Virus record (IMG/VR): IMGVR_UViG_3300033821_000019
Location: 1-64,000 of that record
Length of the DNA stretch: 64,000 bases
Direction: 5' to 3' (one strand)
Origin: a virus
Under the pieces are notes generated by a model. That model was not told the DNA's origin, did not search any database, and saw only the letters and a list, made by a program, of their open reading frames with translations. The stretch's first letter is position 1; the number at the start of each line of letters is the position of its first letter. The translations under genes were made by a program, and so were the position numbers. Shown here piece by piece: positions 46,651 to 60,299 of this stretch.

Positions 46651-46682
46651 AAAAAAGAATGGGGTTTTTAGCCCCATTCTTT
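46651..46682 (-). terminator. Intrinsic terminator after Ro60/TROVE
   Basis: AAAGAATGGGG...CCCCATTCTTT hairpin with T-run. Confidence 0.75.
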
Positions 46683-46713: not shown

Positions 46714-48516
46714 TTACCACTTAGACCGAATCTGGTCAATCGTTGGAATAGGTGCCTTCTCTTCCTTCTTGACGACACTTTCCGTCTCCAAAAGCATACT
46801 GAAAATCTTCTCAGAGAATCCACCAACCAAATTCACCTTCTTTGTTGCCTCATTGACAGGCGTATCACCATAACCATGCAAGTTCACAGAATGCAGCCAA
46901 CAATTCGGATGCTTCTGTTTGAACTTCTGCCATTCGCCATTCAACGAACCGTCAAACCCGCCGTAGCCGTCATTCCAACACTGCATGTCGCTCAGAATGA
47001 TAACACGGTCTGGATTGACATTATTTTTCGCCATCCACTGCACACAGCGATGTGCGTTGGTTGAACAGCCATTGGTATCCGCCTTCTCCAATTTCTTAGA
47101 GATGTCAATAATGGTCGTGTTCTTTGTGTAGTGAACTTGTGCCACATCAGTACCGAAAGCGCACAAGAGAGCACTACCTTCAGAACGCTTTGCAATCATT
47201 CCAGCCAACACATTCGCAGCTTTCAGACACGTAATCTGGCTCTTGTCTGAAACCGGCGAAGTCATGGAACCGGAATTGTCGGCAAAAACAGCCGTCATTC
47301 CCGGCATTTCTGGAACATTCTGACAAGCCAAATCAATGGCATTTTCAATTGCTTCCAAAAGCTTCTGCTTGTGGCGCGGATTGGCCTTATCTTCCTTTTT
47401 TGGCTCTTCGTCGTAACTATAGCCATAAGGATTTGGCTGTCCTTCAACAGCGTCATAAGCAGCCACGAAGCGGAATGGAAGCTGACGGCTCTTCTTAACT
47501 TCTTCCGCGTCAGACAGCATGGCATAGACGCTTTCAATCGTTGCATCTGAAACATTAGCCGATGCCACATTGCGAAGGTTACGCAACATAGCCATATAGC
47601 CAAGAAGCTTTTCGGCAATCAGGTATTCCCAAACTGCCCGCTTGTTTTCACCGCTCTGGCCAAACTGAGACAAAACGACTTCCCAATTGGCCATTGACTG
47701 TGTGACCAATTCCCTAGCCTTATCGTCAAAAATCTTGCACTGCTTCAGGTCTTCACGTGCCGCAACGATTGGCAAAGCTGCCCTGTCAACTGTGCCGTGA
47801 GTCATGTACGTGCGGAGAGGCATCGGCAAAGGATAATCCTTCTTGCGATAAATCCAATGCAGAACATCCTTCCATTTCGGGAATTCGGAACTGTTGTACT
47901 TCAACAATCCACGCTCACCGAAATTATGAAGTGCATCAGCTAGACCACGGCTCAAACAATTCTTTAAGCACTTTGGGCCGAAAAAGAAACGATGCAGCAT
48001 CAAACACGTCTTGATTTCATCAGGACGGATTGCAACCTTTGGCATGTACTGACGGACAAACTGCTGTCCCTTTGGATGGATAGATGCCACAACCATAAGA
48101 ACTTGCGGTGTCAAACGGATGTTCATATCATTGCGCAACCAAGCTGCAATGCTGAACAAATCCTTCGGGTTTGGGCCATTCAAAATACTGATAGCTGCCG
48201 CAAGAATTTCTTGGGACACACTATCCAACTCAGGACAATCAACAAATTTCTTAATCTTTTCGCCTGCCATTTCAATGCGGGACACAAAATCTTCCGCATC
48301 CTTCCTGATGACGTTAGGATTTGGCTTCCAGACGTTATCATTGTAATACTTCGGCTCAGCGAAGAAAGCTCCCGCCGTCATAGTAATGAGCTTTACAGCA
48401 GGATTTTTGATTTCCCACGCAACACCGCCAGCACGGTTCACGCTGGCTCCCTTATCTTGGTTTTGGATGGAAGTAGAAACCGACTTGGCCTTCATTAATT
48501 TCTTCATCGTGCTCAT
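46714..48516 (-). CDS. Ro60/Rsr-like TROVE-domain RNA-binding protein with VWA domain
   Basis: NRAGG, LRNDMNIR, MAMLRNLRN, SRQLPFRF, MIDAS DNSGSM, ILSDMQ. Confidence 0.92.
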   Translation of the reverse strand: MSTMKKLMKAKSVSTSIQNQDKGASVNRAGGVAWEIKNPAVKLITMTAGAFFAEPKYYNDNVWKPNPNVIRKDAEDFVSRIEMAGEKIKKFVDCPELDSVSQEILAAAISILNGPNPKDLFSIAAWLRNDMNIRLTPQVLMVVASIHPKGQQFVRQYMPKVAIRPDEIKTCLMLHRFFFGPKCLKNCLSRGLADALHNFGERGLLKYNSSEFPKWKDVLHWIYRKKDYPLPMPLRTYMTHGTVDRAALPIVAAREDLKQCKIFDDKARELVTQSMANWEVVLSQFGQSGENKRAVWEYLIAEKLLGYMAMLRNLRNVASANVSDATIESVYAMLSDAEEVKKSRQLPFRFVAAYDAVEGQPNPYGYSYDEEPKKEDKANPRHKQKLLEAIENAIDLACQNVPEMPGMTAVFADNSGSMTSPVSDKSQITCLKAANVLAGMIAKRSEGSALLCAFGTDVAQVHYTKNTTIIDISKKLEKADTNGCSTNAHRCVQWMAKNNVNPDRVIILSDMQCWNDGYGGFDGSLNGEWQKFKQKHPNCWLHSVNLHGYGDTPVNEATKKVNLVGGFSEKIFSMLLETESVVKKEEKAPIPTIDQIRSKW

Positions 48517-48557
48517 ATTACATCTCCTTGTTGCGAAGTGTGCCTTAACAAGAATCC

Positions 48558-48628
48558 ATCAATCCCAAAAACTAAGACAGGCTGGTTTCGTTTATGATAG
48601 AAGTAAGCCGGTCTTGAAGTGGATTGAT
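48558..48628 (-). ncRNA. Structured RNA copy A upstream of Ro60 (Y-RNA-like candidate)
   Basis: AUCAAUCC/GGAUUGAU and AAGAC/GUCUU stems around the core GGCUUACUUC...GAAACCAGCC. Confidence 0.6.
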
Positions 48629-48655
48629 TTCAATTCTTGCCATTAAGCACCAATC

Positions 48656-48726
48656 TGCTAATACCGAAAAGTTTGGCTTGGCTGGTTTCATTCAGAGAAG
48701 TAAGCCATGCCAGAAGCGTATCAGCA
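48656..48726 (-). ncRNA. Structured RNA copy B upstream of Ro60 (Y-RNA-like candidate)
   Basis: UGCUGAUAC/GUAUUAGCA and UGGC/GCCA stems with the same core; a G-U pair favours the minus strand. Confidence 0.6.
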
Positions 48727-48731
48727 TTATG

Positions 48732-48759
48732 ATAATACACGCAAGAATGAACTTTTCAA
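48732..48759 (-). promoter_or_regulatory. Sigma70-like promoter for the RNA-RNA-Ro60 unit
   Basis: TTGAAA-N16-TATTAT; predicted start falls at about the 5' end of copy B. Confidence 0.55.
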
Positions 48760-48786
48760 GAAGAAAATTGAAAAATTTCGCTTTTT

Positions 48787-49053
48787 CTAAAACTGCGGTT
48801 TTTGCTCTGCAACCCGTGTAATAGTGCCATCTGGACCTATTTTATCTTCTTTGCCTACATGGTATTTAACCTGTATCAATTCGGCTGTCAAAGAGAAAAT
48901 TTTCTGTGCGTTCTCGATGTCCTTTTTTAGTTCTTCAAGCCGTTTTCCTGCTTCACGATATCTTGCCCAATCTTCAGGCGACACTCCTTCTCTGCCTGCT
49001 ACTCCCGGCAGTCCTTCATTGTGTCCTCTTTTATCTTCATCTTTGTAATCCAT
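48787..49053 (-). CDS. Hypothetical protein
   Basis: 88 aa, AAGGAG RBS. Confidence 0.6.
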   Translation of the reverse strand: MDYKDEDKRGHNEGLPGVAGREGVSPEDWARYREAGKRLEELKKDIENAQKIFSLTAELIQVKYHVGKEDKIGPDGTITRVAEQKPQF

Positions 49054-49188: not shown

Positions 49189-49241
49189 GATGGTCAACCA
49201 CAGAGAGTCTTTTTCTTCTCACCATTTTGAGGGACAAACGT

Positions 49242-50354
49242 ATGCAAGCCGACAATAAAGACAACAATAAAGACAATCGAATCAGACTCAACACAGAAGA
49301 AATGGAACTAATTAAATTGTATCGTGAAACTGGAACAATACCCGACACCTATGTTATTAATTCAGATTTAAACGTCAACAAGCTTCGCGGTAAACATGCG
49401 GAGCTTCAGCGCAGATATAAGACCACGCTAGAAGAATTAGAGCACGCCAACATTCAAATCAACACTTTGATTGATTTGAAAGATGTTAAAATCGAAAAGA
49501 TGGTTTTTGGTGAACAGCACAAGGGACAGACCGGCAACGCTACTGCTGTCATGGTTGCCTCTGATTGGCATCTTGAAGAAAAAGTAGAGCCAGCACAAGT
49601 CAGTGGCAAGAATCAATACAACATACAAATTGCTGCTAAACGTGCTACTAAATTCTTTGAAAAAGGTTTGTTTTTGACAAATCTTATTCGCCAAGGAATC
49701 AAAATCAACAGGCTCGTATTAGCTCTGCTTGGCGATTTCATTTCTGGTTATATCCACGAAGAATTGATGGAAGATAATCAATTAAGCCCAACAGAAGCCA
49801 TTCTTTTCTGCAAGAAGATTTTAATTTCCGGCATTGAAAAGCTGATAGAAGACGGCGACTTTGAAGAAATCATTATTCCTTGCTGCTATGGTAACCACGG
49901 CAGAACAGGGCAAAAGATGAAAATTTCCACCGGCTATAAGAATAGTTTTGAATGGTTAATGTATAAGGATTTGGAAACATACTTCCAAAAAGAAAAGAGA
50001 GTAAAGATTGTCGTCGCTAATGGTTATCATAACACCATCAATCTTTATGGCAAATATCCAATAAGATTCCACCATGGCGATTCTATCAAATATGGTGGTG
50101 GTATTGGCGGCATCACAGTACCCGCTAATAGGGGAATTGCGCAGTGGAATACCCAAGGCGCAGTATATATAGATTGTTTTGCTCATTTCCATCAGTTTAT
50201 AGACAATGGTAATTTTATTTGTAATGGTTCGTTGATAGGTTACAATGCTTTTGCCAATTCCATCAAGGCTCCATTTGAGGAACCCAAACAAACCTTTTTT
50301 GTAATAGACGCTGATAGAGGTAAAATTTTGACAGCACCTATTTTTGTAGAGTAA
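49242..50354 (+). CDS. Calcineurin-like metallophosphoesterase
   Basis: SDWH, LGD, GNHG, HHGD, AHFH motifs. Confidence 0.85.
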   Translation: MQADNKDNNKDNRIRLNTEEMELIKLYRETGTIPDTYVINSDLNVNKLRGKHAELQRRYKTTLEELEHANIQINTLIDLKDVKIEKMVFGEQHKGQTGNATAVMVASDWHLEEKVEPAQVSGKNQYNIQIAAKRATKFFEKGLFLTNLIRQGIKINRLVLALLGDFISGYIHEELMEDNQLSPTEAILFCKKILISGIEKLIEDGDFEEIIIPCCYGNHGRTGQKMKISTGYKNSFEWLMYKDLETYFQKEKRVKIVVANGYHNTINLYGKYPIRFHHGDSIKYGGGIGGITVPANRGIAQWNTQGAVYIDCFAHFHQFIDNGNFICNGSLIGYNAFANSIKAPFEEPKQTFFVIDADRGKILTAPIFVE

Positions 50355-50365
50355 GGGATACTCAT

Positions 50366-50944
50366 ATGCCATATAAAGACCCACAAAAAGAAAAACTCAG
50401 GCAAAAAAAAAGAAAGGAAACTCCTCAATATAAAGAGTGGTTACACAATTATTTAAAAGAATATAGAAAAACTACAAAATATAAACAAAGTCGTCAATCA
50501 TATCTAAACTCTAAATCTGGCAAAGCTGTTATAAAAAAAGCCAAAGCAAAATATCGCAGTTGTGAAGCAAATCGTAAAAAAGAAATAGAAACTGGACGAA
50601 GATACAGAGAAAAAAATAGAGAATTGATTAATAAAAAATCACGACTTAGAGGAAGAATAGTGCGTTTAAAAAAACGCGGATTGACAAAGCAATCTTATAA
50701 GAATATCCTACTTTCACAAAATAACTTATGTGCACTATGTTATAAGCCATTCACTAAAAACAATAAACCTTGCATGGACCATTGCCATTTAACAAACAAA
50801 TTTCGTGGCTTACTTCACAACCAATGCAATTTATTATTAGGCATAGCAAAAGATTCAACTGAGCTATTGTCAAATGCAATAAAATATTTGAAAAAAACAT
50901 CAACCACAAACCAAGGACAAAAATATGAAAAAGTTATTAGTTAG
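50366..50944 (+). CDS. Endonuclease VII-like HNH endonuclease
   Basis: QNNLCALC...DHCH...RGLLHNQCNLLLG. Confidence 0.88.
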   Translation: MPYKDPQKEKLRQKKRKETPQYKEWLHNYLKEYRKTTKYKQSRQSYLNSKSGKAVIKKAKAKYRSCEANRKKEIETGRRYREKNRELINKKSRLRGRIVRLKKRGLTKQSYKNILLSQNNLCALCYKPFTKNNKPCMDHCHLTNKFRGLLHNQCNLLLGIAKDSTELLSNAIKYLKKTSTTNQGQKYEKVIS

Positions 50945-59616: not shown

Positions 59617-60299
59617 TGGTGGAGGTGGCGGGACATCTGTATCTTTGCTTTCACAAAGTATGGACTATTCCTTCATCTGGTTTTTATCCAGAGAGTGGCG
59701 TTTATGATTTCAATTCATGCTAATCCTTAAAAGGATTGCTTAAATTTATCCATCCTAGTGACGCCATGATTTTTCAATTTTAGGCGTTCTATGAGTCTCT
59801 AGACCATCGCCATGATTTCTCAATGGTTTTGGTACGGTGTTTTCATGGGTTATTCCTAACCTTTAGAATTCGCCGTTTGAGCCACTTTTTTGCGCAAGAA
59901 TCACTTCTTGCCTCGACAATTCCTTATCGAACCCGCGTCCTGAGATACTCCAAAGCAAGCGTCTACACGTTTAGTTGCAGATTTGGGACTTCGGTTTGAA
60001 ACTGGCTCTACAACGGCCATTCTCAATCCTATTCTGATTGTCTCACTTTTCAATTCCTCAGATGGTGGAACTGAAAGCCAGTCTGATTGGGTACGCAGTT
60101 ATAGGCATCCAGACGTAATCCCTATAACCACGTCGCTGGTGTTTAGGCAGCGATTTCAGCTACCTTGCGGAAGCTGAAGTCAACGTGTGTTACGTTGGCA
60201 GTTAGTTATTTTCCCCGGTGGATTTTACGTGGCCAACCTGAGAACTCCACGACATGCAGCTACGCCTCTCGGCAATCCAGTCGAAACCTGTTCACCCCC
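59617..60299 (-). ncRNA. ssrA: tmRNA interrupted by a group I intron
   Basis: 5' GGGGGUGAACAGGUUUCGAC; acceptor stem GGGGGUG/CACCUCC-ACCA with G3-U; T-arm GCGGG-UUCGAU|U-CCCGC; tag reading frame 60199-60143 encodes ANVTHVDFSFRKVAEIAA*. Confidence 0.93.
59634..59925 (-). mobile_element. Group I intron (292 nt, ORF-less) in the tmRNA T-loop
   Basis: P1 UUCGAU/GUCGAG with U-G at the splice site; P3 GUGGC/GCCAC; R-like CUAGAGACUC; S-like AAGGAAUAGUCC; P9 GAAA tetraloop; terminal G. Confidence 0.88.

What the first reader, a model, noticed from the sequence alone, without database searches (positions are those of the whole stretch)
46714..48759. Ro60/TROVE gene preceded by two covarying 71-nt RNAs: candidate new Y-RNA class
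Seen: promoter, RNA B, RNA A, Ro60, terminator on one strand. Both RNAs have the same architecture: outer stem, RCUUC / U-rich internal loop, middle stem, then invariant GGCUUACUUC-loop-GAAACCAGCC. The outer and middle stems differ in sequence yet stay paired (AUCAAUCC/GGAUUGAU vs UGCUGAUAC/GUAUUAGCA; AAGAC/GUCUU vs UGGC/GCCA). Established: bacterial and phage Ro60 genes are flanked by Y RNAs, many with a tRNA-like domain. These lack an obvious T-arm. Inference: minimal Ro60 ligands or autoregulatory operators in a phage RNA-repair or anti-defence module.
Basis: partly seen in the sequence, partly recalled or inferred. Interest (0 to 1): 0.8.

Follow-up and report, generated by a model that had tools for sequence, protein, structure and literature searches.

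The report
Minimal Y RNAs before phage Ro60
Two small hairpin RNAs sit in front of a large phage's Ro60 gene; they are real, conserved Y RNAs that keep the Ro60-docking scaffold of bacterial YrlA RNAs but have lost the tRNA-like part, which makes them an uncatalogued sub-family of a known RNA class, not a new kind of system.

Summary
On the minus strand lie a promoter-like site (48759..48732), RNA B (48726..48656), RNA A (48628..48558, inside a longer stem 48650..48540), a 600-aa Ro60/TROVE gene (48516..46714) and a terminator-like hairpin (46682..46651).

A covariance model seeded on these RNAs and relatives finds only these two sites in the 64-kb window. In 238 Ro60-homologue loci it gives 138 matches, all on the Ro60 strand. 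All 14 modelled base pairs show compensatory changes.

The same scaffold in relatives carries a roughly 70-nt insertion with T, acceptor-like and D arms, and one insertion-bearing copy (L092) overlaps a sub-threshold Rfam YrlA match. The window RNAs are therefore the YrlA Ro60-binding module plus the small V hairpin (UUACUUC-loop-GAAA), without the tRNA-like domain.

The presumed Ro60 contact motif is RCUUCAG instead of the published GNCGAAN0-1G, and this switch tracks the Ro60 protein clade. Extra copies sit in phage tRNA arrays far from Ro60, which argues against a purely cis-regulatory role.

Hairpin Y RNAs (YrlB, Yrn2, phage phiLo Yrl1/2) are already published, so this is a new variant of a known kind. 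No Rfam family matches it. Binding and expression are untested. Another scan note had already flagged this same stretch.

The parts
48732..48759 (-). Sigma-70-like promoter, TTGAAA-16 nt-TATTAT. It places the transcription start at about 48726-48724, which is the 5' end of RNA B.
   Evidence: 10 of 12 consensus matches. The -35 and -10 are conserved in L080.
48656..48726 (-). RNA B, 71-nt hairpin Y RNA. Outer stem UGCUGAUAC/GUAUUAGCA; 5' loop GCUUC; 9-bp middle stem UGGCAUGGC/GCCAAGCCA with one A-A mismatch; UUAC; mini-hairpin UUC-loop-GAA; 3' loop AACUUUUCGG.
   Evidence: Model R1 scores 48.6 bits, E 8e-11. Stems are 100% conserved in L080 and only the apical loop differs.
48540..48650 (-). 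RNA A, long form of 111 nt. The 71-nt core is 48628..48558: outer stem AUCAAUCC/GGAUUGAU, 5' loop ACUUC, middle stem AAGACCGGC/GCCUGUCUU, UUAC, UUC-loop-GAA, 3' loop AGUUUUUGG. The core is nested in an extra lower stem of about 17 bp (GUGCUU..GGCAAGAAUU / GGAUUCUUGUU..AAGGCAC).
   Evidence: z = -5.5. Model R1 scores 57.8 bits, E 2e-13. The L080 counterpart has both stems rewritten with compensatory changes.
48514..48529 (-). Shine-Dalgarno AAGGAG and the ATG of Ro60, 11 nt after the end of the RNA A lower stem. No terminator lies between RNA A and the gene.
   Evidence: Sequence. No terminator called.
46714..48516 (-). Ro60/TROVE protein, 600 aa, with a vWA domain. The MIDAS-type D413-x-S415-x-S417 is invariant across 35 homologues.
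46651..46682 (-). Terminator-like hairpin AAAGAAUGGGG-CUAAAAA-CCCCAUUCUUU followed by UUUGU, 32 nt after the Ro60 stop codon.
   Evidence: Fold (z = -3.6 for the 86-nt stretch). Not called by the consensus scan.

Best explanation
RNA B and RNA A are two phage-encoded Y RNAs, meaning small non-coding ligands of the Ro60 ring encoded just downstream.

They are transcribed from one promoter together with the Ro60 mRNA. They are then presumably released by processing. In RNA A the long lower stem looks like a double-strand nuclease site. In the close relative L080 a U7 run follows RNA A instead.

Each RNA keeps the Ro60-binding scaffold of YrlA-type Y RNAs:
- a terminal stem;
- an asymmetric internal loop (5' RCUUC(A/U)G, 3' UUUUYGG/UAUUGG);
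- a 7-9-bp stem;
- the YUAY element (UUAC).

In place of the tRNA-like T, acceptor-like and D arms they carry only the small V hairpin (CUUC-loop-GAAA).

By analogy with characterised Ro60 RNPs, Ro60 docks on the internal-loop region. The RNA then gates the Ro60 cavity and/or tethers Ro60 to a host exoribonuclease such as PNPase, redirecting structured-RNA decay during infection, possibly as a counter-defence.

Shown here: the anatomy, the conservation, the covariation, the linkage to Ro60, the homology of the scaffold to YrlA, and the clade-specific motif switch. Inferred: expression as stable small RNAs, Ro60 binding, the processing route and the downstream effector.
For: Structure is real:
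- A MAFFT alignment of 23 copies folded with RNAalifold gives 13 of 14 pairs with compensatory changes.
- On 35 model-aligned copies, 87.8% of cells are paired. All 14 pairs show double changes. The covariation score is 0.85, against 0.27 for shuffles (0 of 500 reach it) and 0.09-0.20 for slid partners.
- Between the window and L080 (Ro60 92% identical), both stems of RNA A are rewritten while the motifs are kept.

Linkage to Ro60:
- 123 matches plus 15 matches at E<=1 or E<=0.1 in Ro60-homologue loci are all on the Ro60 strand.
- In the clade with >=44% identity to the window's Ro60, there are 44 5'-half motifs in 61.9 kb upstream and 0 in 114.9 kb of gene plus downstream sequence on the same strand. 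27 of 35 loci are positive.
- Only two sites are found in the 78-kb phage record.
- In 667 kb of unrelated viral DNA chosen by a partial pattern, model hits occur only on contigs already known to carry Ro60.

Homology to YrlA:
- The same model aligns over positions 1-74 to copies with a roughly 70-nt insertion that folds into V, T (GGGUUCGAxUCCC), acceptor-like and D (GUAGCUCA..GAGC) arms.
- Rfam YrlA hits the insertion-bearing copy in L092 at 40.5 bits.
- In L053, a sub-threshold Rfam YrlA match (43.8 bits) carries the published-type motif (GGCGUAG), a stem, then UUACUUCG. The same 800-nt leader also holds hairpin copies.

Motif switch tracks the protein:
- CUUCAG-type 5' loop: 32 of 43 core motifs near Ro60 of >=44% identity, against 2 of 274 near more distant Ro60.
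- The distant loci instead carry GNCGAAG/GUGAAG (86), GCGUAG (24) or GUGCAG (19).

Precedent:
- Y RNAs are encoded upstream of rsr, on the same strand, and processed from a common precursor. Hairpin Y RNAs without a tRNA module exist (PMC4201824).
- Two hairpin Yrls upstream of phage phiLo Ro60 bind it and form complexes with host PNPase (PMC12135203).
Against: - There are no expression or binding data for this phage.
- The published Ro60-contact motif (GNCGAAN0-1G / CGAA) is absent. That RCUUCAG replaces it rests on position and on co-variation with the protein clade.
- Rfam YrlA and Y_RNA do not match the window, even at E<=10.
- Model R1 does not hit the Y RNA regions of CcrColossus, VanLee or phage G.
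- No terminator separates RNA A from the Ro60 start codon, so a leader (cis) role cannot be excluded for these two copies.
- Most loci were fetched through Ro60 homology, so part of the association is by construction. The strand bias, the upstream bias and the pattern-scan control are not.
- The covariation counts come from a model-fitted alignment, which leans towards the structure.
Confidence: 0.8

Rival explanations
1. The two hairpins act only in cis, as leader or operator elements. Ro60 binds its own 5' UTR and represses translation or alters mRNA stability, and no free small RNA is made.
For: The hairpins lie between the promoter and the Ro60 start codon with no terminator between them. 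The RNA A lower stem ends 11 nt before the Shine-Dalgarno sequence. Autoregulation by RNA-binding proteins on mimics of their ligands is common (established knowledge).
Against: Copies of the same family lie inside tRNA arrays about 40 kb from Ro60, on the tRNA strand, in related phages (G001, G004). They also occur as tandems of three to four, or downstream of Ro60 (L086, L092, L126, L150). In L080 RNA A is followed by a U7 run. Characterised Y RNAs are likewise cut out of the rsr leader (PMC4201824).
Confidence: 0.1
2. They are decaying remnants of YrlA genes that lost the tRNA-like domain and have no function.
For: They look like YrlA with the T, acceptor-like and D arms deleted. No tRNA-like Y RNA is seen in the 78 kb available.
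Against: Compensatory changes appear in every modelled pair across at least 35 copies. Loop motifs are invariant. The hairpin form recurs in many phages, often alongside tRNA-like copies. The RNA B stems are 100% conserved between the window and L080, while flanking spacers diverge.
Confidence: 0.03
3. They are Ro60-independent elements of phage tRNA/tmRNA transcription units, for example processing signals or decoys for host nucleases, and merely travel with Ro60.
For: Copies lie in tRNA arrays and next to tmRNA and tRNA-Met(CAT) genes in relatives.
Against: All model hits found are on contigs that carry Ro60. The 5' loop motif co-varies with the Ro60 protein clade. The scaffold is homologous to the Ro60-binding module of YrlA.
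Confidence: 0.05

Closest known systems
YrlA (Y RNA-like A; Rfam RF02553; Chen et al. 2014, PMC4201824)
   Same: Encoded just upstream of Ro60 on the same strand. Shares the terminal stem, asymmetric internal loop, roughly 7-bp stem and YUAY element (here UUAC). One covariance model aligns over its full length both to the window RNAs and to relatives that carry the full V/T/acceptor-like/D tRNA-like domain and score on Rfam YrlA.
   Different: No T, acceptor-like or D arm, only the V mini-hairpin. The GNCGAAN0-1G motif is replaced by RCUUC(A/U)G. No Rfam YrlA match at E<=10.
Hairpin-type bacterial Y RNAs: S. Typhimurium and M. smegmatis YrlB, D. radiodurans Yrn2 (PMC4201824)
   Same: Second, shorter Y RNAs without a full tRNA-like module. 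They are long hairpins with a small apical loop, are co-transcribed with other Y RNAs or tRNAs upstream of rsr, and are processed from a precursor.
   Different: Those RNAs were found by immunoprecipitation and 'eluded bioinformatic discovery'. They carry GNCGAA-type or metazoan-type motifs. No sequence model exists, so homology could not be tested. The apical loops here are not clearly pyrimidine-rich.
Yrl1 and Yrl2 of Thermus phage phiLo (PMC12135203, 2025)
   Same: Two stem-bulge-stem hairpin RNAs directly upstream of a phage Ro60 gene. Binding was shown by EMSA and cryo-EM, and a ternary complex forms with host PNPase. phiLo Ro60 is the best PDB match of the window protein.
   Different: The phiLo RNAs were picked by their CGAA motif. 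The proteins align only weakly (E 1.5e-7 over residues 388-576).
Metazoan Y RNAs (Rfam RF00019)
   Same: A Ro60 ligand built on a long stem formed by the 5' and 3' ends, with a conserved bulged region.
   Different: No sequence similarity. The GGUCCGA helix is absent. Different transcription (a bacterial-type promoter, co-transcribed with the protein gene).

Membership tests
Y RNA (Ro60-associated ncRNA, bacterial/phage sense of Chen et al. 2014) | Encoded within about 4 kb of a Ro60/TROVE gene, on the same strand | tested here: met
   RNA A ends 24-42 nt and RNA B about 140 nt upstream of the Ro60 ATG, on the same strand. All 138 family matches in other Ro60 loci are on the Ro60 strand.
Y RNA (Ro60-associated ncRNA, bacterial/phage sense of Chen et al. 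2014) | Stem formed by the 5' and 3' ends, interrupted by a conserved internal loop or bulge (stem-bulge-stem) | tested here: met
   Folds. Covariation in both helices.
Y RNA (Ro60-associated ncRNA, bacterial/phage sense of Chen et al. 2014) | Ro60-contact motif GNCGAAN0-1G (bacteria), CGAA (phiLo) or GGUCCGA (metazoa) on the 5' strand | tested here: not met
   The window RNAs carry ACGCUUCUG and CCACUUCAAG at that place. The canonical motifs occur at the same place in relatives with distant Ro60, and the switch follows the protein clade.
Y RNA (Ro60-associated ncRNA, bacterial/phage sense of Chen et al. 2014) | Physically bound and stabilised by Ro60 | not testable with these tools
   Needs EMSA or co-immunoprecipitation.
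YrlA (Rfam RF02553) | Match to the Rfam covariance model at or above the gathering score (69 bits) | tested here: not met
   No YrlA hit in 48400-48900 at E<=10, and none in the window at gathering score.
YrlA (Rfam RF02553) | tRNA-like domain with a T arm (GGUUCGAAUCC-type) and a D arm | tested here: not met
   The 71-nt hairpins have room only for a 3-4-bp mini-hairpin. ARAGORN finds no tRNA-like gene in the window. No tRNA or YrlA model hit in the region.
YrlA (Rfam RF02553) | A roughly 7-bp stem followed by the conserved YUAY that opens the V region | tested here: met
   UUAC follows the middle stem in both RNAs. [A/U]UAC is invariant in 34 of 35 aligned copies.
YrlA (Rfam RF02553) | Scaffold homologous to that of RNAs carrying the tRNA-like domain | tested here: met
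   Model R1 aligns over positions 1-74 to L092 1371-1511, L013 1605-1745, L093 284-426, L108 2210-2330, L161 2033-2173 and L162 2043-2182, which carry V/T/acceptor-like/D arms. Rfam YrlA scores L092 at 40.5 bits.
YrlB/Yrn2-type hairpin Y RNA | Long hairpin lacking a full tRNA-like module, with a small pyrimidine-rich apical loop | tested here: inconclusive
   The hairpin without a tRNA module is met. The apical loops UCUCUGAAU and UAUCAUAAAC are only about half pyrimidine. No published model or sequence was available for comparison.

The most novel reading that the evidence does not exclude
A phage-specific Ro60 clade and its Y RNAs have jointly re-specified their recognition code, from GNCGAAG to RCUUCAG. 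This would make an orthogonal Ro60 RNP that ignores host Y RNAs. Its minimal RNAs, which lack the tRNA module, are spread through phage tRNA/tmRNA transcription units. They would act as dedicated adaptors that retarget a host exoribonuclease or block an RNA-directed defence during infection.
Probability: 0.2. Interest if true: 0.65.

Novelty: new variant of a known kind. Interest (0 to 1): 0.4.

Why it matters
Y RNAs without a tRNA-like module have so far been found one at a time by immunoprecipitation, and the literature describes them as eluding bioinformatic discovery.

This work gives a sequence-and-structure family with a working covariance model, dozens of members and full covariation support. 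The family links hairpin Y RNAs directly to the YrlA scaffold, as YrlA minus its T, acceptor-like and D arms.

It also shows three further things:
- The presumed Ro60 contact motif changes together with the Ro60 protein clade. This is a ready-made natural experiment on Ro60-RNA specificity.
- Such RNAs are embedded in tRNA arrays and sit next to tmRNA and tRNA-Met genes in large environmental phages. That matches a published guess that some 'tRNA genes' next to a phage Ro60 which counters a defence system may be Y RNAs (PMC11482910).
- The apical domain of the scaffold is modular.

It does not change the concept of Ro60 RNPs.

Tried and rejected
- An exact search for the window's core (GGCTTACTTC-N4-14-GAAACCAGCC) in viral contigs found nothing. 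The core is too specific, and relatives use GG[GA][AT]TACTTC.
- A single-protein search for related loci in viral contigs found nothing. The alignment-based search worked.
- A 14-base pattern scan of viral contigs returned mostly chance matches. It was turned into a negative control for the model.
- Rfam gave no family for the window RNAs.
- Model R1 does not reach the Y RNA regions of CcrColossus, VanLee or phage G. The link to YrlA therefore rests on the intermediate metagenomic phages, not on those reference phages.
- A loose 5'-half regex gave 14 minus-strand hits. On inspection these are pyrimidine-rich antisense coding sequence without the hairpin.
- I considered a short extra helix inside the internal loop (UCAG/UUGG against GAAG/UUUC). 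The register differs between motif types and I could not settle it, so it is left out of the model.
- The 'RNA-repair module' idea was checked through the neighbouring genes. No RtcB, RtcA or ligase was found, only an exonuclease (phrog_284) and an endonuclease VII on the opposite strand.
- The review PMC10870794 is not held.
Full report
**What is there.** The window belongs to an IMG/VR virus record of 78,380 bp that CheckV estimates to be 32% complete, so it is a large phage. On the minus strand, ORF 46714..48516 encodes a 600-aa Ro60. It matches Pfam TROVE (E 7e-22) and vWA_Ro60 (E 8e-10), and PHROG 850 'RNA-binding protein' (E 1e-43). Its solved relatives are phage phiLo Ro60 (9KOP/9L5Y) and D. 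radiodurans Rsr (2NVO). A MIDAS-type D-x-S-x-S is invariant across 35 homologues.

Upstream on the same strand lie, in order:
- a promoter-like TTGAAA-16-TATTAT (48759..48732);
- RNA B (48726..48656);
- RNA A (48628..48558);
- AAGGAG and the ATG.

RNA A is additionally enclosed by a lower stem of about 17 bp, giving a 111-nt hairpin at 48650..48540 (z = -5.5). A terminator-like hairpin follows the stop codon at 46682..46651. The consensus scan did not call that hairpin.

**Is it more than chance?** A relative with 92% identical Ro60 (L080) has both RNAs. RNA B is identical except in its apical loop. In RNA A both stems are rewritten with compensatory changes while the loop motifs are kept, and the -35 and -10 elements are conserved.

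I collected Ro60-homologue loci from three sources:
- viral contigs (78 loci);
- metagenomes (80 loci);
- bacterial genomes (80 loci).

A MAFFT alignment of 23 hairpins, folded with RNAalifold and with no model involved, gave 14 pairs, 13 of them with compensatory changes. I built covariance model R1 from this alignment.

Model R1 gave these results:
- In the window it finds exactly two sites. With filters off they score 57.8 and 48.6 bits, and the next best scores 13.9 bits.
- The whole 78-kb record has no further copy.
- In the viral and metagenomic loci it gives 123 matches at E<=1, every one on the Ro60 strand.
- In the bacterial loci it gives 15 matches at E<=0.1, again all on the Ro60 strand.

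On 35 model-aligned copies, many of them not in the seed, 87.8% of cells pair and all 14 pairs show double changes. The covariation score is 0.85, against 0.27 in shuffles (0 of 500 reach it) and 0.09-0.20 with slid partners. That alignment is fitted to the model, so it leans towards the structure. The model-free result agrees with it.

In the clade with at least 44% identity to the window's Ro60, a simple 5'-half motif occurs 44 times in 61.9 kb upstream. It occurs 0 times in 114.9 kb of gene plus downstream sequence on the same strand. 27 of 35 loci are positive, and most negatives have short upstream flanks.

As a control not conditioned on Ro60, I scanned viral contigs for a partial pattern and took 80 loci (667 kb). 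They gave model hits only on contigs already known to carry Ro60.

**What it is.** In several relatives the same model aligns end to end (positions 1-74) to RNAs of about 140 nt. In these, a roughly 70-nt insertion sits in the apical region. The insertion folds into four elements:
- a V hairpin (CUUC-loop-GAGG);
- a T arm (GGGUUCGAxUCCC);
- an acceptor-like stem-loop;
- a D arm (GUAGCUCA...GAGC).

Rfam YrlA matches one of these insertion-bearing RNAs (L092) at 40.5 bits, with the T, acceptor-like and D arms aligned at high posterior probability.

L053 has a distant Ro60 and four tandem RNAs in its leader. One is a sub-threshold Rfam YrlA match (43.8 bits, gathering score 69) that reads GGCGUAG, then a stem, then UUACUUCG. 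Hairpin-only copies with the same core lie in the same leader.

The window RNAs are the YrlA Ro60-binding module with the T, acceptor-like and D arms absent.

The published contact motif GNCGAAN0-1G is not present. At the equivalent place the window clade has RCUUC(A/U)G, and on the 3' side UAUUGG or UUUUYGG. This switch follows the protein:
- Near Ro60 of at least 44% identity, 32 of 43 core motifs have a CUUCAG-type 5' loop.
- Near more distant Ro60, only 2 of 274 do. Those loci carry GNCGAAG/GUGAAG (86), GCGUAG (24) or GUGCAG (19).

Consistently, R1 matches near distant Ro60 genes are mostly local (model positions 16-63), while those in the close clade cover the full length.

**Context in relatives.** Several related phages share the order tmRNA, Y RNA(s), tRNA-Met(CAT), Ro60. 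In two large phage records, strong extra copies lie 40 kb or more from Ro60, inside tRNA arrays and on the tRNA strand. This argues that the family acts in trans and is matured together with tRNAs. It recalls the D. radiodurans Yrn2-tRNA-Asp-Yrn1 precursor.

The window itself has no tRNA by ARAGORN. Its tmRNA lies 11 kb upstream on the same strand. Among 185,579 species genomes, the close Ro60 clade appears only on two short MAG contigs, so it is essentially a phage and metagenome clade. The window neighbours give no RNA-repair context.

**How it most likely works.**
- Shown: one promoter-like site, two structured RNAs and Ro60 lie in a row with no terminator between them, and the scaffold is homologous to YrlA.
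- Inferred from established Ro60 biology (PMC4201824, PMC12135203): the RNAs are cut from the leader, and Ro60 binds the internal-loop region.
- Also inferred: the RNP gates the Ro60 cavity and/or recruits a host exoribonuclease such as PNPase.
- A phage Ro60-like protein was reported to counter a defence system, with a guess that neighbouring 'tRNA genes' might be Y RNAs (PMC11482910). The tRNA-array copies seen here fit that guess.
- A cis role on Ro60 translation may coexist for the two leader copies.

**Comparison and novelty.** Phage Ro60 genes with adjacent Y RNAs have been known since 2014. Hairpin Y RNAs without a tRNA module are known (YrlB, Yrn2). A 2025 study showed two hairpin Yrls upstream of a phage Ro60 binding it. 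The kind is therefore known.

Three things are new:
- a defined, covarying and widespread hairpin sub-family that no Rfam model detects, and that R1 does not find in the reference phages CcrColossus, VanLee and G;
- its demonstrable derivation from the YrlA scaffold;
- a clade-specific replacement of the contact motif.

I rate it a new variant of a known kind, with interest 0.4.

**Limits.** There are no expression or binding data. The E-values of R1 are rough because of its short calibration.

Noticed in passing
L012 1494-2501; L009 1614-2501; L113 212-2265; L108 1017-2501; L005 537-2501: Conserved gene order in related phages: tmRNA, one to three Y RNAs, tRNA-Met(CAT) directly 3' of the last Y RNA, then Ro60. 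In the window the tmRNA (59924-60291, minus strand) is 11 kb upstream of Ro60 and no tRNA is present.
   Followed up: partly
L160 2984-3099, 4581-4651, 5072-5139; L161 2033-2260 (-); L162 1875-2182 (-): Strong copies of the same Y RNA family, both hairpin and tRNA-like forms, lie inside phage tRNA gene arrays 14-55 kb from the Ro60 gene, on the tRNA strand. This matches a published guess that some phage 'tRNA genes' near Ro60 are Y RNAs.
   Followed up: partly
L012 1983-2190: A copy has the family's 5' half (CUUCAG-stem-UUACUUC) followed by an insertion of about 150 nt that is not tRNA-like, before a 3' AAUAUCGG element. This may be a third type of apical domain on the same scaffold.
   Followed up: no
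L113 1319-1389: A weak match to the HDV-like ribozyme family (HDV-F-prausnitzii, 31.1 bits against a gathering score of 44, E 0.067) starts right at the 3' end of the tRNA-Met that follows the Y RNA.
   Followed up: no
L053 1850-2310: Four tandem Y RNAs in one Ro60 leader: two hairpin-type, one near-canonical YrlA and one with a degenerate T arm. All carry G[GA]CGUA[GA]-stem-[AU]UACUUC.
   Followed up: partly
L080 538-552, compared with window 48540-48557: In the 92%-identical relative, RNA A is followed by a U7 run (terminator-like). The window instead has a 17-bp lower-stem extension. These are two different ways of defining the 3' end of the same RNA.
   Followed up: no
window 59924-60291 (-): Rfam calls a full tmRNA (99.6 bits) but ARAGORN reports no tmRNA in the window. 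Another scan note attributes this to a group I intron in the T loop. I did not check that.
   Followed up: no
window 49227-50944 (+): Divergently transcribed from the Ro60 unit are an exonuclease (phrog_284, E 2e-39) and an endonuclease VII domain protein (Pfam E 5e-17). The other five neighbouring ORFs have no Pfam hit, and the four of them also scanned against PHROGs have no hit there either.
   Followed up: no
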